From Nitrosopumilus sp. (GTDB lineage Archaea; Thermoproteota; Nitrososphaeria; Nitrososphaerales; Nitrosopumilaceae), in assembly GCA_963667665.2 (NCBI GenBank), contig OY763927.2, positions 64,001 to 128,000 of the forward strand: a DNA stretch of 64,000 nucleotides, written 5' to 3'. Position 1 is the first letter of the stretch. Each line of letters starts with the position of its first letter. The position numbers were made by a program, and so were the translations under genes. Shown here in pieces: positions 5,587-38,907 of the stretch. A model generated the notes under the pieces. That model made no database searches, was not told where the DNA came from, and worked only from the letters and a program-made list of their open reading frames with translations.

Positions 5587-6798
5587 TTACAAACTCATCT
5601 TCTTGAGATATAATTGAGGTTCCTTGAGCTCTCTGGTGTTTGGAGGAATTTCTATCATTTTTTTGAAGGTGTCTTTGCCTAGTTTTTCATATACTATTTT
5701 TGTAAAGTCTTTTCCCATACTCTTTCTGATTTGATATGATGAGAAGTCTGTTCCCATAAACGTGGTAAGGTAATTTTGAAAATCTTCATCATCTTTTAGG
5801 ATGTTTTCAATTGCAAAACTTGCCATTCCTTCCATGGCAGTAAATGCTGCATGATGTTGTTGAATTGGAACTAGCCATTTCTTGTAAATATCTAAAAGTT
5901 GTGGAATTAATTCTCCAATCTTTGGATCTATTTCTACATGTGTAAATGTCATAACATCAGGTCCGATTTGTTCTATTAGAAAATGATCTGGATTTAAAAA
6001 GAAAAATAGATTTGCTTTTTTTGCAAATGGAAAATTGTCTGGCACATCTTGTAGTTGACAATACTCTGAAAGCTTGTTAATTGTATCAGTATCAAGTGAC
6101 AAAATTATATTTGCTAGTTCTTCATTAATTTTGTTTACTTGCATTGCAGCATCCTTGTTTACCTGTTGTAGATTTCCTTGTGCAGAATGAATTAATTCTT
6201 CTAATATTGTCATTTTTACTGCACCTCTATATCCAGAATTCACATTTTCAAATCTTGATTCGTATGGCTCTCCTTGTTTATGGAGAATTATCTGTGGATA
6301 TTTTGATAAAATAAATTTATTTAGATATATTACTGAATCAAGGTAATCCCCATATGTTGTTGTAATTTTAGAAATGTATTGAATTGCATATGTTGAATAT
6401 ACCAAATACTTTGTAGTATCTTGTCGCATCAATTCTGCAATTCTTTTTGAATCTTCTTTTGCAACTGCATTAAATAATTCTGTAACATACTCTTTTGCTT
6501 CTTTATCTGCAAAGACTTTGTCACCTTTCAATTTTTTCAAATCTTCTAATTCTGGAAATTTTAACTGTAGATTATCTGGAACTTTAACACCAAGATACTC
6601 TTCAACTTTATCTTTGAAAATTGGAAAAATTTCTTTGGAAATGTCCTCTATTTCTTTGAATTGTACTTTATCTGCAAGACTTTCTTTGGCCTTGATTGCT
6701 AACTCTGTGATCTCTTTTTCTTCATTAATTTCAACTGATAATTGGCCAAATAGGGCTTCGGCAAACTCTTCATATTCTCCCAATTTGCATAAAATCAA
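5587..6798 (-). CDS. conserved hypothetical protein, zincin-like (EExxH...MEG)
   Basis: 403-aa ORF; TILEELIHSAQ and FTAMEGMAS resemble DUF2342/Zincin_2 motifs; true start may be TTG at 6783. Confidence 0.6.
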   Translation of the reverse strand: MILCKLGEYEEFAEALFGQLSVEINEEKEITELAIKAKESLADKVQFKEIEDISKEIFPIFKDKVEEYLGVKVPDNLQLKFPELEDLKKLKGDKVFADKEAKEYVTELFNAVAKEDSKRIAELMRQDTTKYLVYSTYAIQYISKITTTYGDYLDSVIYLNKFILSKYPQIILHKQGEPYESRFENVNSGYRGAVKMTILEELIHSAQGNLQQVNKDAAMQVNKINEELANIILSLDTDTINKLSEYCQLQDVPDNFPFAKKANLFFFLNPDHFLIEQIGPDVMTFTHVEIDPKIGELIPQLLDIYKKWLVPIQQHHAAFTAMEGMASFAIENILKDDEDFQNYLTTFMGTDFSSYQIRKSMGKDFTKIVYEKLGKDTFKKMIEIPPNTRELKEPQLYLKKMSL

Positions 6799-21975: not shown

Positions 21976-22659
21976 ATGTCTGACGTTTTACTTGTACAAA
22001 ATACCAAAACTGAAGGTTCTGGATATCTAGGAGAACTTCTCAATGATGATGGATTTGATATAACTTCAGTTAATGCAAAACATGAACCACTTCCTAAGAA
22101 AGATGTTTCACTTGTTGTAATTTTAGGAGCACCTGAAAGTGCAAATGATAATTTACCATATCTTCAAGCAGAACAACAACTTATCAAAAATTGTGTTGAG
22201 AAAAATATTCCTGTGCTGGGAATTTGTTTAGGATCGCAATTAATTGCTAAAACTTTTGGTGCCAAAGTATACAGTGGCCCACGAAAAGAAATTGGATTTT
22301 ACAATGATTTGAAAATTCATAATGACACTTTATTTTTTTCTGGTTTCAAAAATCCTTTTACTGTCTTTCATTGGCATGGTGATACCTTTGATTTACCTGA
22401 AAATGCAGTTAGATTAGTCTCATCTGAGCATTATCTGAATCAAGCATTTCAGTACAAAAGCGCAGTTGGATTACAATTTCATTTGGAGGTAAATGAGGAA
22501 ATGGTCAATTACTGGCTTGATAGAACTGAGGAAAAACTAGAAAATATTCCTAATGTAGATCCACAAAAAATTCGTTTAGATATTGATGAAAATATTTCAA
22601 CTGTAAAATCAAATATGAAAAATTTTTACAACAACTTCAAATCATCATTTGATCTTTGA
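21976..22659 (+). CDS. class I glutamine amidotransferase (GMP-synthase-like, stand-alone)
   Basis: GICLGSQ, FHWHGD, LQFHLE catalytic triad. Confidence 0.88.
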   Translation: MSDVLLVQNTKTEGSGYLGELLNDDGFDITSVNAKHEPLPKKDVSLVVILGAPESANDNLPYLQAEQQLIKNCVEKNIPVLGICLGSQLIAKTFGAKVYSGPRKEIGFYNDLKIHNDTLFFSGFKNPFTVFHWHGDTFDLPENAVRLVSSEHYLNQAFQYKSAVGLQFHLEVNEEMVNYWLDRTEEKLENIPNVDPQKIRLDIDENISTVKSNMKNFYNNFKSSFDL

Positions 22660-28739: not shown

Positions 28740-29777
28740 TCACATTTTTGGATCAAGGCCTTTTGCCAATCTTAATGCATCTACAAGACCATCTGCATAC
28801 CCAATACTCAAAATTGCTACCTCATCTTGACCATCTACTAGGAATTTTTCTGCATCAAGTATGTACAATTCTGCATTTTCTAAAATTACTTGAAATTCTT
28901 TTTGATCTTTATAGAGTGGTTTAACTTCTTCAAGTGCCTCTCTGACCATTGGAACATATTTTTTCATCATTTGAACTGAAATCTTTTTTGTTTTTTCAGA
29001 ATTATCAAATGGCTCATCAATACATTCCCCTAATATCTTCAAGGCATCTGATTCAGTAAAGTGTAATCTACCAGGAATTATTACAGTATGTGGTGGCTTT
29101 CCAAAATCTCTTTTCTTCAGGCTAGATATTTTACCTGAAATAATTGTTTGATCCTTGAATCCTATTCTTGATGCAACTATTACATATGTAGATAAGCTAA
29201 TGACATTTCTTCTCTGCCCTGCCTCTGTTTCTAGTAATCCGCTTAATGCATCTTTAGGATCCAAGAAAAAATCCTTGTCTTGATTGTATTCTAAAAGAAG
29301 TACAGTGTGATTTCCTTCAATGATATTTTTGTAAATTAGATAGTACGGTGTTGTAAGTGATTTCATTTCACTCATTATTGTTGCAATTCTTCCAACTTTG
29401 TAAAAATGTAAACCACATTCTCCTATCATAGAAGTAAGTGATGATGAAGCATGAATGGAAAATGTCTTTATTTTTTCTTCAATTGCTCTTGTTCTTAATT
29501 CAATGTGAGTTGTTGCAATGTATGGATCTCCATATGATAGTAAAACTACTTTTTTCTTCTTTGCATTTTGTAAAATTTCATTTCCATCTTCTACTAGCCA
29601 TCTCTTTGCGGGTTTGAATTCACCTTTTGTTGCATTTTTGATTTTCACCAAATCTAATTTCCCAATTGGACTGGTAAACTGTTCAAGATAGACAATATCT
29701 GCTTTTGATAAAATATCTAGTGCTTCATTAGGAATTGATTTGAACCCAGAAATTCCTAAACCTACAAACCAAAGCAT
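28740..29777 (-). CDS. dph5: diphthine synthase with C-terminal DUF357-like domain
   Basis: FVGLG, GDPYIATTH, HTVLLLE, FGKPPH; C-terminal ILSIGYADGLVDALR. Confidence 0.9.
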   Translation of the reverse strand: MLWFVGLGISGFKSIPNEALDILSKADIVYLEQFTSPIGKLDLVKIKNATKGEFKPAKRWLVEDGNEILQNAKKKKVVLLSYGDPYIATTHIELRTRAIEEKIKTFSIHASSSLTSMIGECGLHFYKVGRIATIMSEMKSLTTPYYLIYKNIIEGNHTVLLLEYNQDKDFFLDPKDALSGLLETEAGQRRNVISLSTYVIVASRIGFKDQTIISGKISSLKKRDFGKPPHTVIIPGRLHFTESDALKILGECIDEPFDNSEKTKKISVQMMKKYVPMVREALEEVKPLYKDQKEFQVILENAELYILDAEKFLVDGQDEVAILSIGYADGLVDALRLAKGLDPKM

Positions 29778-30904
29778 TACTGCATCTTTTTATCATGAAG
29801 TCTTTTTAAATGCTGAAGAGTTTTCTTGAGAATCTCTATTCCTCTTAGATACTCATCAATTGAGACCTTCTCATCAATTGTATGGGCTTCATGAGGATCT
29901 CCTGGACCATATGTTACAACTGGTATTTTCCACTGATTTCCAAGAACGTTCATGTCCCCTGTCCCTGTTTTTCTAATTAGAGTTGGTCTTGAATGTTCTA
30001 CATCAATAACTCCAAGAGTAAATGCTCGAACTAATGGTGAATTATGATCTGCTTCAAATGGTTCTGTTTCATCAAGAATTGAATAAAATGCCTCTACACC
30101 TCTTCTTTCTGCAATTTCTTTTACTAACGTTGCAATTTTTTGTTCAGTAGATTTACAGTTCATATCAACTGGAATTCTGATATCAAAAGTAGTTTCACAT
30201 TCTTTTGGAGTAACGTTGTGACTAATTCCTCCTGTAATTTCAGTTATAGTTGCAGTTAGTAACATACCTTTAGTTCTATCGTCTTGACCTGCTTCTAATC
30301 CTTCTTTGAGTTCTTTTACAAAAATCATTGATTCTTGAATTGCATTTTTTGAAAGCCATGGTGCACTTGCATGAGAACTATCCTCAACTGAAACTTTAAG
30401 ATTAATTGCTAATCTTCCTTTGTATGCAATTGTGACTTGTTTAACTCCACTTGGTTCTCCAAATATTGCATAATCAATACCCATATCTTTTTTTACAAGA
30501 TTTTTTATTCCTGTAGCACTACCTTCTTCATCTACAGCTGCTACAAAAATTATAGTTCCATTATTGTTTTGAATTGATGCTGCAGCAAATAACATTGCAA
30601 TTAATGGTGCTTTAGCATCTGATGCCCCACGTCCATAAAGCGAATCTCTTTCTTTTCTAACTTTGACTTTTCCTGGAACAACATCCATGTGTCCACATAA
30701 CATAATTTTTGGTGAACCTGTTCCCTTCTTTGCAATTAAATTCCCTACTTCATCAACTTTAATATCTTCAAATCCTAAATCATCACATTTATCAGCTAAA
30801 AAATCTGTCATTGGTTTTTCACTGAGAGATGGTGTGTACAATCTGAGTGCTTTTTCAAGTGTCTTTACTGCAAAACTTGGTGTTACTGTAAAATGAGAAT
30901 TCAA
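29777..30904 (-). CDS. lysK: [LysW]-lysine/ornithine hydrolase (M20 family)
   Basis: GHMDVV, GRGASDAK, DEE, GEPS, TGTGDMN, YGPGD...HT.DE; within lys cluster. Confidence 0.88.
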   Translation of the reverse strand: MNSHFTVTPSFAVKTLEKALRLYTPSLSEKPMTDFLADKCDDLGFEDIKVDEVGNLIAKKGTGSPKIMLCGHMDVVPGKVKVRKERDSLYGRGASDAKAPLIAMLFAAASIQNNNGTIIFVAAVDEEGSATGIKNLVKKDMGIDYAIFGEPSGVKQVTIAYKGRLAINLKVSVEDSSHASAPWLSKNAIQESMIFVKELKEGLEAGQDDRTKGMLLTATITEITGGISHNVTPKECETTFDIRIPVDMNCKSTEQKIATLVKEIAERRGVEAFYSILDETEPFEADHNSPLVRAFTLGVIDVEHSRPTLIRKTGTGDMNVLGNQWKIPVVTYGPGDPHEAHTIDEKVSIDEYLRGIEILKKTLQHLKRLHDKKMQ

Positions 30905-30907
30905 TTC

Positions 30908-31756
30908 TTACTTACCCATCTTTAATGCATACTCTAACATTTTAGTTGGAATATCCACTTCACAAACTCTAACTGTGTTTTTGTATTCTGTTGTATTGTT
31001 AACCTCATGAACTACTAGTCCTTTATCATCACTTTCCATCAAATCTACACCTACGATATCCCCCTGAACTGCATTTTTTGCCTTAATACACATTTCTTCC
31101 ATTTCTGGTGTAACCTTACATGGTTCTGCTACTCCTCCAAGTGCCATATTCGTTTTCCAATTTCCATTTTCAGAAGTTCTGTAAATTGCTGCAACTATTT
31201 TGTCTCCCACCATTATAGCTCTGATGTCTCTTGGTGGTCTTTTTACAAATTCTTCTAGATAATGGATTTGGTGAATTGGATACATGTTTTCTCTACTTTC
31301 AATAATTCCATCAGCTGATTCTTTGTCATTTAATTTTGAAATTAATCTACCCCAACTCCCAACTGTTGGTTTGATTACTCTAGGAAAACCTTGTGTTTCT
31401 AATGCTTGCAGAGCAGCTTCTTTTGAAAAAGCAACTGTTGCATCAGGCGTTGGCACTCCAAATTTCTTTAGTAACATATGTGTGAATAATTTATTTCCTG
31501 CAAAAATTCCTGTATTGAGACAGTTGATTACCTTTACTCCAAGTCCTTCCAAGGCTGCAGTTGAATGCAAGTTTCTATAGTAACTCACACATCTTTGGAT
31601 AACTATTCCATAATCTTCAGGATTTTTTTCTAAATTTAATGCTAAATTCTTACAATTAACCATCTGAACGTTGATGTTATTTTTTTTACCGGCTTCTAGT
31701 AGAGCTTTTTCTTCCCAACGGATGTTATCGTAAAGAATAGTAACGTCAGGACTCAC
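30908..31756 (-). CDS. lysX: alpha-aminoadipate--LysW ligase
   Basis: RWEEKALL, KPTVGSWGR, WKTNMALG, EVNNTTEYKNT (KN-type signature); GTG start overlapping the lysW stop (GTGA). Confidence 0.88.
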   Translation of the reverse strand: MSPDVTILYDNIRWEEKALLEAGKKNNINVQMVNCKNLALNLEKNPEDYGIVIQRCVSYYRNLHSTAALEGLGVKVINCLNTGIFAGNKLFTHMLLKKFGVPTPDATVAFSKEAALQALETQGFPRVIKPTVGSWGRLISKLNDKESADGIIESRENMYPIHQIHYLEEFVKRPPRDIRAIMVGDKIVAAIYRTSENGNWKTNMALGGVAEPCKVTPEMEEMCIKAKNAVQGDIVGVDLMESDDKGLVVHEVNNTTEYKNTVRVCEVDIPTKMLEYALKMGK

Positions 31757-31920
31757 TGTCCCCAATCCTCGCCAACCGTTTGGGCAGGCTTTAGATCGAA
31801 ACCATCTGAACCTTTTGTTAATTCAAAACTTGCTCCGCATTCAGGACATGTTACAATCTCTCCTTCAAGTGCATCACTTGGTACAGAAATATTTGCATCA
31901 CATTCTTCACATTTTGACAT
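31753..31920 (-). CDS. lysW: amino-group carrier protein LysW with atypical C-terminus EDWGQ
   Basis: MSKCEECDANISVPSDALEGEIVTCPECGASFELTKGSDGFDLKPAQTVGEDWGQ*; two CxxC; GGAGA SD upstream; missed by ORF track. Confidence 0.92.
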   Translation of the reverse strand: MSKCEECDANISVPSDALEGEIVTCPECGASFELTKGSDGFDLKPAQTVGEDWGQ

Positions 31921-31942
31921 GTTTTCTCCTCACCTTCCCTCT

Positions 31943-33109
31943 CTATTTATCATTAATTATCTTTTTTTCAAGTCTGTCTTCAAGTGGAATCTCAATAAGA
32001 TCACCCATTCTAAGATTCTTCAATCCAGCTGCAACTGCTTTTGCACCTTCATCGTCTTTTTCAAGTCCTAATAGTGACATTAGATATGCAGCTCCTGTCT
32101 TTCCTGCTAATTCCCCAAAGACAATTCTTCTTCTGTTTCCAACTGCTCTTGGGGGTATGGGCTCATAGGCTGCAGGGTTTCTAAGAATTGCTGCAAGGTG
32201 TGTTCCTGCTTTGTGCTTGTATGCAGATGATCCTACAATTGGTTTTGAGTCATATGGTTTGATTGATGTATAATCTTCAATTAATCTAGACAGATCTAAC
32301 AACATGTCTAATCTGAAATCGTTTGGTGATTTGTATAGATAAGTAAGTGCTACTGCAACTTCTGCAAGAGGTGGGATCCCAGTTCTTTCTCCAATACCAT
32401 CAATAGTAGTATGAATCTGATCAACTCCTGCATCACATGCTGAAAAAGCATTTGCTACTGCAAATCCAATATCATTGTGAACGTGCGCATCTAATGGTAC
32501 ACTTACTACCTCTCTAACTTTCTTAACAAAATTATACATTCCAATAGGGCGTAAAATTCCAACTGTATCTGGAAGACTAATTCTATCAACTCCTGCATCT
32601 TCAATTGCCTTGCATACTTTGAGTAAAAATTCTGGCTCTGTTCTACTTCCGTCTTCTACTGTAAATCTAATTTTAAGACCATGAGATTTTGCATATTCTA
32701 CAGTTTCTACAGCTCTGTCAAATGCCTCATCTCTTGAAATATGTAATTTATCTTTTAGATGAATATCTGAAATTCCTAAATATGCAGCACACCATTTTGC
32801 ATCACAATCTAATGAAATATCAATATCTGCTTTAAGAGCACGTCCATGAGAAACAATATCTGCACTTAATCCTTGTTTGATGATTGTCTTAGTTGCCTCT
32901 TTATGATCTTTTGATATAACTGGCGAGATTTCAATTTGATCAACTCCAAAATAATCTAACATCCATGCAATCTGTATTCTTTGTTTGTTTGTAAATGAAA
33001 CACCTGGATGTTGTTCCCCTTCTCTTAGCGTACTGTCTAAAATTCTAATCTTCTTTGGATTTTTTTCATATGCGTTATAGATATTCGCATAGTGATTCGG
33101 ATCATTCAT
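31943..33109 (-). CDS. homocitrate synthase (DRE-TIM, LeuA family)
   Basis: DSTLREGEQ, HVHNDIG, GIGERTG, HKAGTH; directly upstream of lysW-lysX. Confidence 0.85.
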   Translation of the reverse strand: MNDPNHYANIYNAYEKNPKKIRILDSTLREGEQHPGVSFTNKQRIQIAWMLDYFGVDQIEISPVISKDHKEATKTIIKQGLSADIVSHGRALKADIDISLDCDAKWCAAYLGISDIHLKDKLHISRDEAFDRAVETVEYAKSHGLKIRFTVEDGSRTEPEFLLKVCKAIEDAGVDRISLPDTVGILRPIGMYNFVKKVREVVSVPLDAHVHNDIGFAVANAFSACDAGVDQIHTTIDGIGERTGIPPLAEVAVALTYLYKSPNDFRLDMLLDLSRLIEDYTSIKPYDSKPIVGSSAYKHKAGTHLAAILRNPAAYEPIPPRAVGNRRRIVFGELAGKTGAAYLMSLLGLEKDDEGAKAVAAGLKNLRMGDLIEIPLEDRLEKKIINDK

Positions 33110-33225: not shown

Positions 33226-33645
33226 TTAGATTACTTTCTTCAAAATAATTACAGTATTTGTATCAACTACACCTGGAATCTTTCTTAACGCATCAATACT
33301 ATTATTAATTTCAGCAATTGTTGCTGCACTAATAATTACTGTAATGTCATATTGACCTGTAATTTCATAAACTGTTTTCACTCCTTCTAATTTTGTAAGT
33401 TTTGCAGAAACTTTGGATGTGTCTGTTGCAGAATCAACTGAAACTAAAACAATTGCACTAGTAGCATTTTCTTCACCAAGTTCCAAAGTAAATTTTTTAA
33501 TTACTCCACTTCCTAATAGATTTTTTACCCGTCTTCTTACAGCTGATTCAGAAAGTTTTAGTTTTTTTCCAATGTCTACAAATGATTCTCTAGAGTTTTC
33601 TTTTAGATATTCTATGATCTTTTCGTCTACTTTATCTCTGTACAT
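33226..33645 (-). CDS. lysM: Lrp/AsnC-family regulator LysM
   Basis: N-terminal HTH SESAVRRRV, YEITGQYD; inside lys/arg cluster. Confidence 0.85.
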   Translation of the reverse strand: MYRDKVDEKIIEYLKENSRESFVDIGKKLKLSESAVRRRVKNLLGSGVIKKFTLELGEENATSAIVLVSVDSATDTSKVSAKLTKLEGVKTVYEITGQYDITVIISAATIAEINNSIDALRKIPGVVDTNTVIILKKVI

Positions 33646-34813
33646 TACGTTTTTGCTCCTCTTCTGTTAGTATAGAATCAAGAGCATGTAAAACTTTTGT
33701 TATGTCTTCTTCAGATATTACTAATGGTGGAAGAATTCTTAGTATATTTCGTCCAGAGTATAACATCAGAATACCATCTTTTATTAACCCCATTAGAATA
33801 TCTTTGATTTCAAATTTCATCTCTATTCCTATCATGAGTCCTTTACCACGAATTTCTCTAATCATCATATGTTTTTCTTTTAATTTCTCTAATCCTTCTC
33901 TGAAAATTTTCCCCATCTTCTCAGAATTCTCAATCAATCCATCTTCTGTTAATGCTTTAAGAGCTGCAATCCCTGCTGCACAAGAAATTGGGTTTCCTCC
34001 AAATGTTGAAGAGTGTTCTCCTTTACTCATTGAAGAGAGAATGTCTGGTCTTACAAGAGTTACACCCATTGGTACTCCTCCTGCTATTCCTTTTGCAAGA
34101 CATAAAATATCTGGCGCAGTATTCCAATGATCACAAGCCCATAATCGTCCAGTTCTACCTAAACCAGCTTGTATTTCGTCAAAAATTAACAGAATTCCTT
34201 TCTCATCGCAAAGTTTTCTTACTTCTTGTAAAAATCCATCAGGTGCAACAATAATTCCACTCTCTCCTTGTATTGGTTCTAAAATTACAAATGCTGTATC
34301 GTCATCAATTACTGAACGAAGTGATTCAATATCTCCAAAAGATGCAAAAGAAACTTTTTCAACAAGTGGTTGAAATGGTTTTCTATATTTTGGATTGAAT
34401 GTTAATGACAAAGCACCAAAAGATTTTCCGTGATAGGAACCTTTCATTGCAACCATTCCTTTTTTACCTGTAAACTTTCTTGCAAACTTTATTGCAGCTT
34501 CAATTGCTTCTGCTCCACTATTGTTTAGATGAACTTGTGTGAGTCCTTTTGGAGCTAGTCCAATAAGCAATTTCAAAAACTCTTCTCTTGTTTTGTTGTA
34601 TAATGAACTATGAACTGTGATAATTTTATCAAGTTGTTCTTTTATTGCATTGTTGACTCTTTGATTTTGATGACCTACTAGTGCTACACCATATCCTCCC
34701 ATACAGTCAATGTACTCTTTTCCATCTACATCCCATACATGAGCTCCAACTCCTTTTTCAATTGTAACTGGAAATCTCTGATAGAGATTTCCCATAAATT
34801 GATCTTCACTCAT
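33632..34813 (-). CDS. lysJ: [LysW]-aminoadipate semialdehyde/glutamate semialdehyde transaminase
   Basis: SGAEA, EPIQGE, FDEIQAG.GRTG, AKGIAGG, STFGGNP. Confidence 0.9.
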   Translation of the reverse strand: MSEDQFMGNLYQRFPVTIEKGVGAHVWDVDGKEYIDCMGGYGVALVGHQNQRVNNAIKEQLDKIITVHSSLYNKTREEFLKLLIGLAPKGLTQVHLNNSGAEAIEAAIKFARKFTGKKGMVAMKGSYHGKSFGALSLTFNPKYRKPFQPLVEKVSFASFGDIESLRSVIDDDTAFVILEPIQGESGIIVAPDGFLQEVRKLCDEKGILLIFDEIQAGLGRTGRLWACDHWNTAPDILCLAKGIAGGVPMGVTLVRPDILSSMSKGEHSSTFGGNPISCAAGIAALKALTEDGLIENSEKMGKIFREGLEKLKEKHMMIREIRGKGLMIGIEMKFEIKDILMGLIKDGILMLYSGRNILRILPPLVISEEDITKVLHALDSILTEEEQKRNVQR

Positions 34814-35609
34814 GTTCAATCACCGTACAATTATCATGTGCAATTGCAGAAGATATTGGATTTTCTTTCTGGCCATTTGCAATCAATGCTTCTTTAACAC
34901 CCATGTCTAGTGCTTCAGTAGCTGCTAAAATCTTCTTCTCCATTCCTAGTCCTATTTTTGGTCTGATTTCTTTTGCTTCAGCTAATGTAAGTTTTGGAAC
35001 AAGTTTGTCATCCATTAATAGTCCGTCAACATCTGTAATGAATAATACTTTGTCACAACCTACTTTTCCAGCTACATATGCTGCAGCTCTATCTCCATCG
35101 ACATTAAGAAATTCTGATTCTTCACTAATTGCTATAGGTGAAATAACAGGTATAAGTCCTTGTTCTAAGAGTAATTTTATGAATTTAGAGTTTACATTGG
35201 TAATTTTTCCAGTGTAGCCTCCATCAATTGCTTGTTTCCTACCTTTTTCATTGATTATGAGAAGTTTCTTTTTTCTGTCAGCTTCTATAACTTTGGCATC
35301 AACTCCAGAAAGACCGATTGCGTTAATCCCATTTTTCTGAAGTAACTGCACAATTGTCTTGTTTACTCTACCAGACATTACCATTGTAAAAATTTCAGCA
35401 GTCTCTTTGTCAGTGTATCTACTTTTGATTCCACTAGGTGATGTTACAAATTTTGGTTCTTTTCCAAGTTGTTTACAAACTTTTGTAACTTCTTTTCCAC
35501 CACCATGAACTAAAATCACACCTTCTGATTCTATTGTTTTTTTAATGTCTGCAATTGTAGATGGATGTAAATTATCTACTACGCTTCCACCAATTTTGAT
35601 TGTGATCAT
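34806..35609 (-). CDS. lysZ: [LysW]-aminoadipate/glutamate kinase
   Basis: IKIGG, VHGGG, SPSG..SRYTD, LNVDGD. Confidence 0.9.
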   Translation of the reverse strand: MITIKIGGSVVDNLHPSTIADIKKTIESEGVILVHGGGKEVTKVCKQLGKEPKFVTSPSGIKSRYTDKETAEIFTMVMSGRVNKTIVQLLQKNGINAIGLSGVDAKVIEADRKKKLLIINEKGRKQAIDGGYTGKITNVNSKFIKLLLEQGLIPVISPIAISEESEFLNVDGDRAAAYVAGKVGCDKVLFITDVDGLLMDDKLVPKLTLAEAKEIRPKIGLGMEKKILAATEALDMGVKEALIANGQKENPISSAIAHDNCTVIEHE

Positions 35610-35611
35610 TT

Positions 35612-36658
35612 CTAAACAGGAGTTAGTGGAGTGTATCGTAGTCCATCCATTTCATCAAAACCACACATTATGTTCATATTTTGAATTGCTGAACCTGCTG
35701 CACCTTTCATCAAGTTATCTGATGCTGATAATGCAATCAATCTGTTGTTATCCTCATCTATATCAAATCCAATATCACAAAAGTTTGAACCAACCAAGAA
35801 CTTTGGATCTGGGAATTTGTATAATCCCTTTTTATCACGAATAAGCCTGATAAATTTTTCATCACCATAAGCTTGACGATACAATTTCCACAATTCTTTT
35901 TCATCTATTTCTTTTTGCATGAACGTATGGTTTGTACATAAAATTCCACGAACTACATCAACTGCATGTGGACTCATAGATACTTTGATCTTCTTTCCAG
36001 CAATTTGGCTAAGTTCTTGTTCAATTTCACCAGTGTGTCTATGCTTTGCTGGTTTGTATGGCCTAATCACTCCTGCTCTCATTGCATGTGCAGTTCCAGA
36101 ACCAGAACCTGCACCCGAAGACCCAATCTTTGAATCTACAATAATGTGTTCAGTATCAATAATGTTATTTCGAATTAATGGAGCCAGTGCTAGTATTGAT
36201 GTAACTGCCATGCAGCCAGGACAAGAAACAAGTTGTGATTTTTTGATTTCTTCTCTATGTAATTCAGGAACTCCAAAAACTGATTTTTCTAAATAATCTG
36301 GATGTGGATGCTCCCATCCATACCATTTGTCATAATCTTCTTGATTATGTAATCTGTAATCAGCACTCAAATCAATTATTTTCATACCTCTGTCATATAG
36401 TGCCTTTACAATTTCAGTTGCAGTACCGTGTGGAACAGCTGTGAACACTAGATCACATTTGTCAGTTAATTTATCATAATCCAATTCTGAGAAAGTAAGA
36501 TCTGTAAATCCTTTCAAGCTTGGTTGTACTCTATGAAGATATTCACCGACATGCTGTCTTGATGTCACCATGGCTATCTCAACATCTGGATGGTTAACAA
36601 GAAGACGAAGTGTCTCTCCGCCTACATATCCTGATGCTCCTACAATACCTACTTTCAT
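35612..36658 (-). CDS. lysY: [LysW]-aminoadipyl/glutamyl-phosphate reductase
   Basis: GASGYVG, DLSADYRL, CPGC, HRH..EI, DNLMKGAAG. Confidence 0.9.
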   Translation of the reverse strand: MKVGIVGASGYVGGETLRLLVNHPDVEIAMVTSRQHVGEYLHRVQPSLKGFTDLTFSELDYDKLTDKCDLVFTAVPHGTATEIVKALYDRGMKIIDLSADYRLHNQEDYDKWYGWEHPHPDYLEKSVFGVPELHREEIKKSQLVSCPGCMAVTSILALAPLIRNNIIDTEHIIVDSKIGSSGAGSGSGTAHAMRAGVIRPYKPAKHRHTGEIEQELSQIAGKKIKVSMSPHAVDVVRGILCTNHTFMQKEIDEKELWKLYRQAYGDEKFIRLIRDKKGLYKFPDPKFLVGSNFCDIGFDIDEDNNRLIALSASDNLMKGAAGSAIQNMNIMCGFDEMDGLRYTPLTPV

Positions 36659-36686: not shown

Positions 36687-37544
36687 TTATTTCCTAACGT
36701 AGTTTAGCGCAAATTCTATCATTTCTTTTGGAATGTTTCGTTTTGCAACTCTAGCCAATCCTTTGAATTCAACTGTATTGTTAACTTCGTGTACAACTAG
36801 ACCTCTCTTATCGTCTTCCATCATATCTATTCCTAAAATTCCACCACCCATGGCCTTTGATGCTTTTGTTGCCATATCCTCCATTTCTTTTGTGATCTCA
36901 CAAAGTTCTGGTTCTGCTCCAAGTGCTATGTTTGTCTTAAAACCACCTGATGATTTTCTGTACATGGCTGCAATAGGTTCATCTCCTACAGTGATTACTC
37001 TGATATCTCTTGGTGGTCTTTTGATTAATTCTTGCAAGTAGTAAATTCTATCATGTGGACTATCTGTAATTTGTCTTATTTCAATAACTGCATCCATTGT
37101 ATCTTTATCTTTAATTTGCATTACACCTCTACCCCAACTCCCTATCACTGGTTTGATAACTAGTGGGTATCCAACTTTTTCTAAATTCTTTGTTGCACCT
37201 TCACTTGAAAATGAAAAGTATGTTTTTGGTGTTGGAATATTTTTTTTTTTTAAAAGTAAAGTCATAAACATTTTGTTTCCACAAACATTTGCAACATCAA
37301 ATTTGTTTAGAACTGGAATATCCATAAATTCTAGACTTGCAGTAAAGTGAAGTCCTCTAAAATAACTAACACATCTTTCTAAAACAATATCCCCAAAATC
37401 ATAATCTTCTCTTTTACTATCTGTGTTAACTTGAGTTATCTTTGCATCTAACATCACTGCTTTATGCCCTAGTTTTTCTGCCTCTTTTTGAAGCATCTTT
37501 TCTTCCGTTCTCAGACGGTCAAACACGATACATACTTTTGACAT
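36687..37544 (-). CDS. argX: glutamate--LysW ligase (ArgX-type paralogue of LysX)
   Basis: ATP-grasp KPVIGSWGR, FKTNIALG, EVNNTVEFKGL (KG-type signature); follows argG and second lysW. Confidence 0.8.
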   Translation of the reverse strand: MSKVCIVFDRLRTEEKMLQKEAEKLGHKAVMLDAKITQVNTDSKREDYDFGDIVLERCVSYFRGLHFTASLEFMDIPVLNKFDVANVCGNKMFMTLLLKKKNIPTPKTYFSFSSEGATKNLEKVGYPLVIKPVIGSWGRGVMQIKDKDTMDAVIEIRQITDSPHDRIYYLQELIKRPPRDIRVITVGDEPIAAMYRKSSGGFKTNIALGAEPELCEITKEMEDMATKASKAMGGGILGIDMMEDDKRGLVVHEVNNTVEFKGLARVAKRNIPKEMIEFALNYVRK

Positions 37545-37711
37545 TACTCTCCCCAGTCTTCGCCTACGGTTTCTGCTTGTTTAAGCTCTAAATTTGATCC
37601 ATCTTTTTTAGCGATTTCAAAGTCAGCGCCACAATCAGGACAGGAGATTATTTCTCCCACTGAGGCATCGTCTGGAATGTTTAATGCTGCATCACATTCT
37701 GGGCAGTTCAT
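37544..37711 (-). CDS. lysW: second amino-group carrier protein (LysW/ArgW), canonical EDWGE terminus
   Basis: MNCPECDAALNIPDDASVGEIISCPDCGADFEIAKKDGSNLELKQAETVGEDWGE*; ATGA overlap with argG and TAATG overlap with argX. Confidence 0.93.
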   Translation of the reverse strand: MNCPECDAALNIPDDASVGEIISCPDCGADFEIAKKDGSNLELKQAETVGEDWGE

Positions 37712-38907
37712 ATTTTTTTTGACCTTCTCTTTTGTAATTTATTAGCTTCTGTTGTCTGCATTCCCCATAATTCTATAAATCCTTTGGCTAATCTCTGATC
37801 AAATGTTGACTCTGAACCATAAGTGACGATACCATGATTGTATAATGAATTATTAGATTTTCTTCCAACGACCCTTAGGCTTCCTTTGTACAACTTTAGT
37901 TTCACACTTCCTGATACTGGCTTTTGTGATGCCTCGATAAACCCATCTAGGTCTGTTTTTAGTGGGTCCTGCCAAAGCCCAGAATACACCAAGTATGCCC
38001 ATTCATCATCAATTAGGGATTTGAATTTATTTTCATGTTTTGTATGAACCATCTTTTCTAAATCAGCATGTGCTTCAATCAAACAAGTGGCTGCAGGAGT
38101 TTCATATACTTCACGGGATTTAATTCCAACAACTCTGTCTTCAATATGATCTACTATTCCGACACCTGCGGCACCCGCTTTTTTGTTAATATATTCAATT
38201 AATTTTTGAGAATCCATAATTTTATCATCAACTTTAACTGGAATTCCTTTTTCAAATTTAATTTCTAAATACGTTGGTTTGTCTGGCAAATTTTTTGTTT
38301 TAACCCAAATGAATGCATCATCAGGAGGTTCCTTGTATGGATCTTCTAGTACTCCACCTTCAATTGCACGTCCCCACAAGTTTTGATCAATACTGAATTT
38401 TTTTGCCACAGCATCAATTTCAATTCCATGTTTCTTTGCAAACTTTAATTCAGTATCCCTATCCAAGTTTTTGTCTCGAATTGGAGCAATGATTGGTAGG
38501 TTAGAACCAGATTGTAATGTGATATCAAATCGCACTTGATCATTTCCTTTACCTGAACATCCATGTGCTAACGATGTTACTTTTTCTTTTTTTGCAATCT
38601 CTAAAACTTTCTCTGCAATTAGTGGTCTTGCAAGTGCTGTTGCAAGACAATATTTTTTTTGATAAAGTGCATTGGCTTTAATTGATGGAAAAATATAGTC
38701 TTTGACAAATTCTTTTCGTGCATCAATGTTGTAATGTTTTTTCACACCCAGTTTTTTTGCTTTAGCTGCAATTTTTTTACTATCATCACCTTGTCCAACA
38801 TCTACTGTAACTGTAATGACATCCATGTCATGTTCTTCTTGTAGATATTTTACAACCACTGAAGTATCTAGTCCTCCAGAGAATGCAAGAATTCCTTTTT
38901 GAGTCAT
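37708..38907 (-). CDS. argG: argininosuccinate synthase
   Basis: AFSGGLDTS, HGCSGKGNDQVRF, GIKSREVYE. Confidence 0.96.
   Translation of the reverse strand: MTQKGILAFSGGLDTSVVVKYLQEEHDMDVITVTVDVGQGDDSKKIAAKAKKLGVKKHYNIDARKEFVKDYIFPSIKANALYQKKYCLATALARPLIAEKVLEIAKKEKVTSLAHGCSGKGNDQVRFDITLQSGSNLPIIAPIRDKNLDRDTELKFAKKHGIEIDAVAKKFSIDQNLWGRAIEGGVLEDPYKEPPDDAFIWVKTKNLPDKPTYLEIKFEKGIPVKVDDKIMDSQKLIEYINKKAGAAGVGIVDHIEDRVVGIKSREVYETPAATCLIEAHADLEKMVHTKHENKFKSLIDDEWAYLVYSGLWQDPLKTDLDGFIEASQKPVSGSVKLKLYKGSLRVVGRKSNNSLYNHGIVTYGSESTFDQRLAKGFIELWGMQTTEANKLQKRRSKKI

What the first reader, a model, noticed from the sequence alone, without database searches (positions are those of the whole stretch)
31753..31920. 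LysW paralogue ends in Gln (EDWGQ): the substrate-attachment carboxylate is missing
Seen: final codons GAG GAT TGG GGA CAG TGA; the paralogue at 37544 ends GAA GAC TGG GGA GAG TAA. The gene is otherwise intact (Zn ligands, SD, coupled to lysX, downstream of homocitrate synthase). Known: LysX phosphorylates the gamma-carboxyl of the C-terminal Glu of LysW to form the isopeptide with aminoadipate, and a Gln side chain cannot be activated this way. Inference, if conserved: (a) an unknown maturation step deamidates Gln to Glu (LysK, which hydrolyses gamma-glutamyl amides, or the stand-alone GATase at 21976 are candidates), making a pro-carrier that could couple lysine synthesis to nitrogen status; (b) ligation at the alpha-carboxyl; or (c) a decoy or inhibitor carrier. 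Any of these would be new chemistry or regulation.
Basis: partly seen in the sequence, partly recalled or inferred. Interest (0 to 1): 0.8.

Follow-up and report, generated by a model that had tools for sequence, protein, structure and literature searches.

The report
Lysine carrier protein ending in glutamine
Ammonia-oxidising archaea encode their lysine-pathway carrier protein with a terminal glutamine where the textbook protein needs a glutamate, and in many species it is the only carrier, so an undescribed step must make or replace the reactive group.

Summary
Window 31753-31920(-) is an intact LysW ending EDWGQ; its paralogue at 37544-37711(-) ends EDWGE. The CAG codon is in contigs of three other studies and in one RNA-library contig. 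Every orthologue read in the family ends in Gln (67 of 67 loci; 112 of 120 protein clusters), as do those of the two sister families.

In the sister family the two paralogues flip between E and Q. 43 of 57 genomes have no Glu-ended LysW, including complete ones with no DapF or ArgJ. Only E or Q occurs, apart from one His singleton. Flips happen about as often as synonymous C/G changes, and the ligases do not co-vary. Gln-ended LysW also heads canonical lysWXYZJK operons in Jordarchaeia and Undinarchaeota.

So the decoy idea is excluded, and an alpha-carboxyl switch is disfavoured. The best reading is a pro-carrier whose Gln is converted to Glu, as PupQ is by Dop, most plausibly by the release hydrolase LysK. 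The neighbouring GATase is not supported. No deamidation was shown. I found no paper describing this.

The parts
31753..31920 (-). lysW, lysine-branch ('K-type') carrier, 55 aa, ends EDWGQ. Gln codon CAG at 31758-31756, stop TGA at 31755-31753.
   Evidence: It aligns end to end with solved LysW chains 3vpb_E, 3wwl_A and 5k2m_E, which end in E.
30908..31765 (-). lysX, ATP-grasp ligase of the AOA-specific LysX clade. The ORF runs from TTG at 31765; the likely start is GTG at 31756-31754, overlapping caGTGa of lysW. The GSWGR motif is present.
   Evidence: TIGR02144, 327.7 bits, cut-off 275.6.
29777..30904 (-). lysK, M20 [LysW]-lysine/ornithine hydrolase. It is the candidate enzyme for turning the terminal Gln into Glu.
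   Evidence: Peptidase_M20 and M20_dimer. (TIGR01902, 269.6 bits, cut-off 163.1; NF003367 [LysW]-lysine hydrolase 264 bits, below its cut-off of 363). Orthologue found in 57 of 61 genomes of the sister family.
31943..33109 (-). Homocitrate synthase, first enzyme of the aminoadipate route, directly upstream of lysW-Q.
   Evidence: HMGL-like 1e-69, HCS_D2 2.3e-16.
37544..37711 (-). Second carrier ('R-type', argW-like), 55 aa, ends EDWGE.
   Evidence: In the family, 112 of 120 clusters end EDWGE and none end in Q.
36687..37544 (-). argX-type ATP-grasp ligase, coupled to the Glu-ended carrier. It groups with the single ligases of non-ammonia-oxidising relatives.
33632..36658 (-). Single-copy shared enzymes: lysY/argC (35612-36658), lysZ/argB (34806-35609) and lysJ/argD (33632-34819).
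   Evidence: One search gives the ORFs. The family assignment is by reading the translations and by the matching Pfam results for the equivalent genes in L185. These three window ORFs were not scanned themselves.
37708..38907 (-). Argininosuccinate synthase (argG), upstream of the Glu-ended carrier.
   Evidence: by reading the translation. Not scanned.
21976..22659 (+). It was considered here and is not supported.
   Evidence: PF00117 5.4e-23; closest solved chain TM1158, 1o1y, function unknown. Searches show its distribution does not follow Gln-ended LysW.

Best explanation
The gene encodes the working amino-group carrier of the lysine (aminoadipate) branch. It is written with a C-terminal Gln as a genetically encoded precursor of the reactive Glu. 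After translation the gamma-amide is removed, by hydrolysis to Glu or an equivalent conversion in an active site. LysX then makes the usual gamma-glutamyl phosphate and isopeptide with aminoadipate. From the first release onward the carrier cycles as LysW-Glu.

The most likely agent is LysK, the M20 hydrolase that already cleaves gamma-glutamyl amide bonds at this very residue to release lysine and ornithine. This is the logic of Dop, which both deamidates PupQ and removes Pup.

Shown here:
- The gene is real, expressed at least as RNA-library sequence, and conserved across the whole ammonia-oxidiser order.
- Gln-ended LysW is the only carrier in many genomes.
- The residue is only E or Q and switches at about the synonymous rate.
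- The ligases do not adapt to the switch.

Inferred: the deamidation itself, its timing and the enzyme.
For: (1) Conservation.
- K-type orthologues end in Q in 29/29, 20/20 and 18/18 family loci.
- 112/120 protein clusters end in Q.
- The two other families of the order do the same.
- All 11 LysW genes read from 10 genomes of non-ammonia-oxidising families of the class end in E.

(2) Sister-family matrix: 57 genomes, 18 genera.
- All four combinations of K/R with E/Q occur.
- 43 of 57 genomes have no Glu-ended LysW.
- Four genera have a single LysW ending in Q. Of these, the two genomes checked (G229, G261, genus g29) keep both LysX and ArgX.
- DapF and ArgJ were found in 0 of 5 genomes tested.

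(3) Only E or Q. Of 150 diverse 50%-identity representatives, 110 carry the [DE]W[GAS]x end: 91 E, 19 Q, nothing else.

(4) Toggle rate, compared with mean C/G changes at six neighbouring fourfold sites on the same ligase trees:
- Family K-type (n=65): 0 C/G changes at base 1 of the last codon, against 1.5.
- Sister K-type (n=17): 3, against 1.3.
- Sister R-type (n=29): 1, against 1.0.
- Family R-type (n=17): 0, against 0.3.
Parsimony gives at least 3 and 2 flips.

(5) Ligases are blind to the flip.
- GSWGR is invariant in 142/142 ligases, and 45 columns are at least 97% invariant.
- No column follows the partner's E/Q across groups.

(6) Generality.
- A Gln-ended LysW heads a complete lysW-X-Y-Z-J-K(M20) operon in Jordarchaeia, with no extra gene.
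- In Undinarchaeota-like genomes the lysK position is held by a class-I GATase-fold gene, whether LysW ends in E or Q.
- In every operon read, the enzyme at the release (lysK) position, by family assignment a gamma-glutamyl amide hydrolase, accompanies the toggle.

(7) LysK is single-copy next to lysW-lysX in 57/61 sister-family genomes, including Gln-only ones.

(8) Precedent. PupQ is deamidated by Dop to ligation-competent PupE, and Dop also removes Pup (PMC8599861, passages).
Against: - No deamidation, mass shift or enzyme activity was observed. All the evidence is comparative.
- M20 enzymes of this clade recognise an amino-acid leaving group. Activity on a primary amide is assumed, not known.
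- If Q only matters for the first turnover, it is unclear why the family keeps K-type Q (112 of 120 clusters, 1-2 E) and R-type E (112 of 120, 0 Q) so uniformly. The neutrality test rests on very small counts (0-3 events) and cannot exclude weak selection.
- One cluster ends EDWGH (P0116: 6 members, one 639-nt contig). If real, that would fit a side-chain-independent mechanism better.
- The own genome has no Dop/PafA homologue, so the analogy is of logic only.
- The ligase trees used for the counts are FastTree trees of linked genes, not species trees.
Confidence: 0.55

Rival explanations
1. Alpha-carboxyl ligation. Gln stays Gln for the life of the protein. LysX, a RimK relative, attaches aminoadipate to the main-chain carboxylate of the last residue, and the Glx side chain serves only for recognition.
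For: - LysX belongs to the RimK family (TIGR00768). RimK adds Glu to the C-terminus of S6 and makes poly-alpha-glutamate (PMC10375531, abstract in the listing).
- An E/Q-only pattern could also reflect a recognition pocket.
- The single EDWGH cluster fits.
- The uniform K=Q / R=E split in the family would make sense if the difference were permanent.
Against: - The shared single-copy LysZ, LysY, LysJ and LysK would have to process alpha-linked and gamma-linked substrates side by side.
- They would have to re-adapt at each of at least 5 flips.
- No ligase column follows the flip, and GSWGR plus 45 columns are invariant.
- ArgX with Gln-ended partners is orthologous to ligases with Glu-ended partners.
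- In Natrinema, argW(E54A), which keeps an alpha-carboxylate, is an arginine auxotroph (PMC10433800).
Confidence: 0.15
2. The ligase itself converts the amide. With bound ADP and phosphate, LysX or ArgX attacks the Gln amide to form the acyl phosphate, as Dop does. It then either hydrolyses it or passes it directly to aminoadipate or glutamate (transamidation), so no separate maturation enzyme is needed.
For: - A ligase is found beside most Gln-ended LysW genes read, though not all. None was found next to lysW in L258, and G305 keeps lysW(Q) alone.
- The Jordarchaeia operon has no extra gene.
- Dop, a homologue of the ligase PafA, works through a catalytic phosphate (PMC8599861).
Against: - PMC8599861 calls PupE the ligation-competent form, and deamidation there is done by Dop, not the ligase PafA.
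- No sequence change in LysX or ArgX accompanies Gln-ended partners.
- No such activity is on record for an ATP-grasp enzyme in the papers I searched.
Confidence: 0.12
3. A separate dedicated amidase matures LysW-Q, for instance the stand-alone class-I GATase-like protein at window 21976-22659.
For: - Within the class, this GATase was found in ammonia oxidisers (76/80, 3/3 and 3/3 genomes) and in 1 of 64 other genomes.
- It lies 6-10 kb from lysW-Q in many genera of the family.
- A class-I GATase gene sits inside the lys operon of Undinarchaeota-like genomes.
Against: - It was not found in 3 of 4 genomes of genus g24 (one complete) nor in complete G218, although g24 has K-type Q.
- It was not found in g61 (0/2) or g65 (0/2, both Q/Q, one 99% complete).
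- It is present in the E/E genome G257.
- No orthologue turned up in the Jordarchaeia genome.
- The Undinarchaeota GATase is only 27% identical to it and accompanies Glu-ended LysW as well.
Confidence: 0.06
4. The Gln-ended protein is a decoy, inhibitor or regulator rather than a carrier.
For: It lacks the encoded reactive carboxylate.
Against: - It is the only LysW in many genomes that have no other evident route to lysine or arginine.
- It heads complete biosynthetic operons in unrelated archaea.
Confidence: 0.02

Closest known systems
Canonical LysW/ArgW amino-group carrier proteins (Thermus thermophilus, Sulfolobus/Sulfurisphaera, Thermococcus kodakarensis, Natrinema gari)
   Same: - Same 53-56 aa Zn-ribbon and the same acidic tail ...EDWG.
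- Same coupling to a LysX/ArgX ligase with the GSWGR motif.
- Same pathway genes.
   Different: - The last residue is Gln, not the Glu whose gamma-carboxyl carries the substrate (PMC10433800).
- The order has two carrier paralogues, each with its own ligase.
- The E/Q state flips between lineages.
Pup / Dop / PafA of Actinobacteria
   Same: - A small protein modifier is encoded with a C-terminal Gln in some lineages and Glu in others.
- The Gln form must be deamidated before a ligase activates the gamma-carboxylate.
- The enzyme that removes the modifier also deamidates it (PMC8599861).
   Different: - No homology: the ligase is an ATP-grasp enzyme, not glutamine-synthetase-like.
- The own genome has no Dop/PafA homologue.
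- The target is a metabolite, not a protein lysine.
- Deamidation is inferred here, not shown.
RimK and ribosomal protein S6
   Same: Homologous ATP-grasp ligase acting on the C-terminus of a small protein.
   Different: RimK extends the alpha-carboxyl. LysX is described as using the gamma-carboxyl (PMC10433800). Which one is used on Gln-ended LysW is untested.
Gln-to-Glu maturation of chemoreceptors by CheB/CheD
   Same: Gene-encoded Gln is converted to the functional Glu after translation.
   Different: The sites are internal and serve as methylation sites. The enzymes are unrelated.

Membership tests
LysW/ArgW amino-group carrier protein | Zn-ribbon globular domain scoring above the curated family cut-offs | tested here: met
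   PF21344: 48.1 bits against a cut-off of 27. NF041070: 87.8 bits against 75. TIGR01206 (bacterial-type lysW): 30.9 bits, below its cut-off of 53.2.
LysW/ArgW amino-group carrier protein | Four Zn-binding Cys (CxxC ... CxxC) | tested here: met
   C4, C7, C25 and C28 in the translation. They are invariant in alignment A3.
LysW/ArgW amino-group carrier protein | C-terminal EDWGE motif whose last Glu carries the substrate | tested here: not met
   The protein ends EDWGQ. EDWG is kept; the encoded reactive Glu is not. It is therefore filed as a variant of the family, not a standard member.
LysW/ArgW amino-group carrier protein | Encoded next to, and translationally coupled with, a LysX/ArgX ligase bearing GSWGR, within the Lys/Arg pathway genes | tested here: met
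LysW/ArgW amino-group carrier protein | Covalent loading with aminoadipate or glutamate by LysX/ArgX | not testable with these tools
   Needs biochemistry or mass spectrometry.
Pup/Dop-type pro-modifier system (works-like comparison only) | C-terminal Gln in some lineages and Glu in others at the ligation residue | tested here: met
Pup/Dop-type pro-modifier system (works-like comparison only) | Dop/PafA-family (Pup_ligase, PF03136) enzyme present | tested here: not met
   0 matches in the own genome, which is 99.97% complete. It is not a member; the resemblance is of logic only.
Pup/Dop-type pro-modifier system (works-like comparison only) | Demonstrated deamidation of the Gln form before ligation | not testable with these tools
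   Inferred only.
RimK-type alpha-carboxyl ligation | Substrate attached to the main-chain carboxylate of the last residue | not testable with these tools
   The indirect evidence is against it (PMC10433800).

The most novel reading that the evidence does not exclude
The Gln amide is never simply hydrolysed to a free Glu. Either the ATP-grasp ligase or a GATase-fold enzyme uses it directly, swapping ammonia for aminoadipate or glutamate (a phosphorolytic or thioester transamidation, so first loading needs no ATP). Or the carrier is loaded on its alpha-carboxylate and stays Gln. Either would be new chemistry for the amino-group carrier pathway, and would make the terminal E/Q a real functional switch between the lysine and arginine carriers of ammonia-oxidising archaea.
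Probability: 0.2. Interest if true: 0.9.

Novelty: new variant of a known kind. Interest (0 to 1): 0.72.

Why it matters
Ammonia-oxidising archaea are among the most abundant microbes in oceans and soils. Their lysine and arginine synthesis has only been inferred from genomes (PMC6038301).

The textbook mechanism of the carrier pathway requires a C-terminal Glu. Here the carrier is encoded without it across a whole order, and it is often the sole carrier. Current pathway reconstructions therefore miss at least one chemical step.

The finding gives a sharp, cheap experimental question: is LysW-Gln deamidated, and by what? It suggests a second, independent case of the unexplained PupQ/PupE dichotomy. 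It predicts that a carrier-release hydrolase (LysK, or the GATase-fold enzyme that replaces it in Undinarchaeota) doubles as a maturation enzyme.

It also warns annotators that 'EDWGE' is not a safe rule for recognising LysW. 19 of the 110 representatives that carry the [DE]W[GAS]x end, among the 150 listed, end in Q.

Tried and rejected
- Sequencing error or private mutation: rejected.
- Decoy: rejected.
- Constraint from the lysW/lysX overlap as the reason for Q: rejected. The GTGA overlap fixes only the third base of the last codon, and both CAGTGA and GAGTGA occur.
- An apparent LysX column (R versus S/A/T) that followed the partner's E/Q turned out to be the translated overlap upstream of the real start.
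- Three other 'segregating' LysX columns and seven ArgX columns did not hold across groups.
- GATase at 21976 as an obligatory deamidase: not supported.
- Complex prediction of that GATase (alignment A2) with LysW-Q (alignment A3) gave 'no answer' (score 0.02 against a mark of 0.32). That is neither evidence for nor against binding.
- The RNA-library contig (X15) shows presence in an RNA library only, not proven transcription. Depths were not used.
- Removal of the last residue to expose Gly was considered and rejected, because the residue would then be free to vary, and it is not.
- Spontaneous deamidation was considered too slow to rely on (recalled chemistry, not tested).

Papers:
- 'EDWGQ' gave 0 papers.
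- 'LysW' + 'deamidat' gave 1 paper, a general PTM review seen only in the listing.
- 'LysW' with E54Q, E53Q or E56Q gave none.
- The original LysW papers (Horie 2009, Ouchi 2013) were not in the library. They are cited only through PMC10433800 or from recall.
- Supplementary files were not opened. Proteomics supplements of AOA papers (for example PMC6593220, listing only) could hold the C-terminal peptide and bear directly on the claim.

Unpublished genomes G077, G092, G093 and G277 enter only the tallies and tables. No region of them was fetched, and no specific claim rests on them.
Full report
**1. What is in the window**

On the minus strand lies a lysine cluster:
- homocitrate synthase (31943-33109);
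- a 55-aa LysW (31753-31920) ending GAG GAT TGG GGA CAG TGA, that is EDWGQ;
- lysX (ORF 30908-31765, likely GTG start at 31756-31754, overlapping caGTGa);
- lysK (29777-30904, M20).

About 5.8 kb away lies a second cluster, in this order:
- argG;
- a second LysW (37544-37711, EDWGE);
- an argX-type ligase;
- lysY;
- lysZ;
- lysJ;
- an Lrp-type regulator.

The own genome (99.97% complete) has only these two LysW genes. The Gln-ended protein aligns end to end with the solved LysW chains 3vpb_E, 3wwl_A and 5k2m_E. Its Q55 sits on their terminal Glu.

**2. Real, not an error**

Contigs from runs of three studies cover 31600-32100 without a difference. So does a 270-nt contig of a metatranscriptome library across the whole gene. 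One of the DNA runs may be the assembly's source.

**3. Conservation within the family**

149 of 151 genomes of the family have a match, mostly two. That tally includes three unpublished genomes.

| Sample | Result |
|---|---|
| Best loci | 29 of 29 end EDWGQ |
| One genome from each of 20 further genera | 20 of 20 have the Q copy; the E copy lay inside 16 of the 20 fetched stretches |
| Further same-genus loci | 18 of 18 end in Q |
| 120 listed 90%-identity clusters found with LysW-Q | 112 Q; 1 EDWGE (P0023, 20 members, 24 contigs); P0030 also carries EDWGE, in a read-through artefact; 1 EDWGH (P0116, one 639-nt contig); the rest read-through or adapter artefacts |
| 120 clusters found with the Glu-ended paralogue | 112 EDWGE; 0 Q; 8 artefacts |

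**4. Depth in the phylogeny**

In a class-wide sample, the three families of the order carry two LysW genes. The other families carry one.
- All 11 LysW genes read from 10 genomes of those other families end in E.
- In family f2 the K-type copy ends in Q and the R-type in E.

A tree of 142 linked ligases splits into two clades:
- an order-specific LysX clade, whose partners are the 'PAQxVGEDWG' K-type carriers;
- an ArgX clade that also holds the single ligases of the other families.

**5. The sister family (f3) is the key**

I read both carriers in 57 genomes of 18 genera. All four combinations occur:

| Combination | Genera |
|---|---|
| K:Q + R:Q | most genera |
| K:Q + R:E | g31, 4 of 5 genomes |
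| K:E + R:Q | g60 (5/5), g66, g71 (3/3) |
| K:E + R:E | one genome, G257 |

Four genera (g29, g64, g68, g72; 17 genomes) have a single LysW, and it ends in Q.
- Complete one-contig genomes G229, G261 and G274 are among them.
- For G229 a Pfam search confirmed no further LysW. The family-wide Pfam search gave one match each for G261 and G274.
- G229 and G261 keep both ligases.

In all, 43 of 57 genomes have no Glu-ended LysW.
- DapF and ArgJ were found in 0 of 5 genomes tested, including G000, G229, G261, G256 and G230. The carrier route is therefore the only evident one.
- A LysK orthologue is present in 57 of 61 genomes, next to lysW-lysX.
- Both CAA and CAG encode the terminal Gln.

This excludes a decoy.

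**6. Only E or Q, at about the neutral rate**

Of the 150 best 50%-identity representatives, 110 have the [DE]W[GAS]x end: 91 E and 19 Q, with no other residue.

I compared C/G changes at the first base of the last codon with C/G changes at six neighbouring fourfold sites, all counted on the ligase trees:

| Group | n | C/G changes at last-codon base 1 | Mean at fourfold sites |
|---|---|---|---|
| K-type, family f1 | 65 | 0 | 1.5 |
| K-type, f3 | 17 | 3 | 1.3 |
| R-type, f3 | 29 | 1 | 1.0 |
| R-type, f1 | 17 | 0 | 0.3 |

Total changes at those fourfold sites in the family K-type set are 7-17 per site. Parsimony on the ligase trees needs 3 and 2 flips.

The counts are small and the trees are quick ones. 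As far as they go, E and Q behave like synonyms, while every other replacement is purged.

**7. The ligases do not respond**

- GSWGR, the motif said to recognise EDWGE (PMC10433800), is invariant in 142 of 142 ligases.
- 45 columns are at least 97% invariant.
- No column follows the partner's terminal residue across groups.
- One apparent hit was the translated gene overlap.

**8. Outside the order**

A DNA pattern for AE..GEDWGQ-stop found at least 119 stretches in species genomes. Most are Nitrososphaeraceae R-type genes. Others include:
- two Jordarchaeia MAGs;
- an Undinarchaeales MAG;
- 'archaeon UBA55';
- a 'Methanobacteriota' MAG;
- a non-AOA-type Thermoproteota MAG;
- R-type Q in two Nitrosopumilaceae MAGs.

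In Jordarchaeia the Gln-ended gene heads lysW-X-Y-Z-J-K(M20) with nothing added. That genome also has a Glu-ended LysW. In four other genomes the Gln-ended LysW is the only one.

**9. A GATase in the lysK position**

In the Undinarchaeota-like genomes the operon is lysW-X-Y-Z-J followed, with 4-nt overlaps, by a 222-aa class-I GATase-fold gene (PF00117; Peptidase_C26 in a relative).
- Only a weak M20 hit exists elsewhere in these genomes.
- The same GATase follows lysJ in three relatives whose LysW ends in E.

So it looks like a replacement of LysK, not a Q-specific addition. It is an enzyme whose ancestral reaction is hydrolysis of a glutamine amide.

**10.

It is confined to the order within the class and is related to TM1158, which has unknown function. 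But its distribution does not follow Gln-ended LysW:
- It was not found in several Gln-bearing genomes, including complete ones and a 99% complete Q/Q genome.
- It is present in the E/E genome.
- It has no orthologue in the Jordarchaeia genome.

It is not required.

**11. Reading**

The carrier must be competent. The mature reactive group must be the same whether E or Q is encoded.

The simplest mechanism is conversion of Gln to Glu by an enzyme that every such system already has. LysK cleaves gamma-glutamyl amides at exactly this residue. Dop sets the precedent for a remover that also deamidates (PMC8599861). The own genome has no Dop/PafA homologue.

Rivals are conversion by the ligase itself, alpha-carboxyl loading, and a separate amidase.

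Still unexplained is why the family keeps K=Q and R=E so uniformly if the difference lasts only one turnover.

**12. Novelty**

I found no paper with EDWGQ, none linking LysW to deamidation, and none with an E-to-Q LysW variant. The library lacks most subscription papers, and supplements were closed.

Noticed in passing
L309 1171-5853 (+); L308 4641-9213 (-); L336, L337, L338: In Undinarchaeota-like genomes the lys operon ends with a class-I GATase / Peptidase_C26-like gene in the place of lysK. It is translationally coupled to lysJ, whether LysW ends in E or Q. An aconitase-family gene lies between lysW and lysX in two of them. This is probably a non-orthologous replacement of the carrier-release hydrolase.
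   Followed up: partly
L310 about 6119-6535 (+): One relative (G305) keeps a Gln-ended lysW, but the rest of the operon is gone. lysW is followed directly by the membrane-protein gene that follows the operon in its relatives.
   Followed up: no
G229, G261 and other genomes of genera g29, g64, g68, g72 (L079, L163, L171, L176, L181, L182): Four soil-type genera have lost the R-type carrier. The two genomes checked (G229 and G261, genus g29) keep both LysX and ArgX. As in Sulfolobus, one carrier would then serve both branches, but here it ends in Gln.
   Followed up: partly
window 21976-22659 (+): Stand-alone class-I GATase-like protein related to TM1158 (1o1y). Within the class it is confined to the ammonia-oxidiser order. 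It is 6-10 kb from the lys cluster in many genera of the family. Function unknown.
   Followed up: partly
L302/L185 and L307 (Jordarchaeia genome G303): This Asgard genome has two LysW systems, one Gln-ended and one Glu-ended, each near an M20 LysK-like gene. That mirrors the situation in ammonia oxidisers.
   Followed up: no
P0001, P0019, P0030, P0041, P0092 and P0400-P0451: Several database LysW entries run on past the stop (…EDWGQW…, …EDWGEEC…) or end in adapter-like sequence. They look like gene-calling or assembly artefacts and would blur any automatic tally of C-termini.
   Followed up: no
L221 (1504-nt contig titled Chitinophaga sp. MAG): A Nitrososphaeraceae-type R-type LysW sits on a short contig binned to a bacterium. 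This is probably a binning error.
   Followed up: no
window 33226-33645 (-): An Lrp/AsnC-type regulator gene overlaps the end of lysJ, between the two carrier clusters. It recalls LysM of Sulfolobus (PMC3597687, listing only).
   Followed up: no
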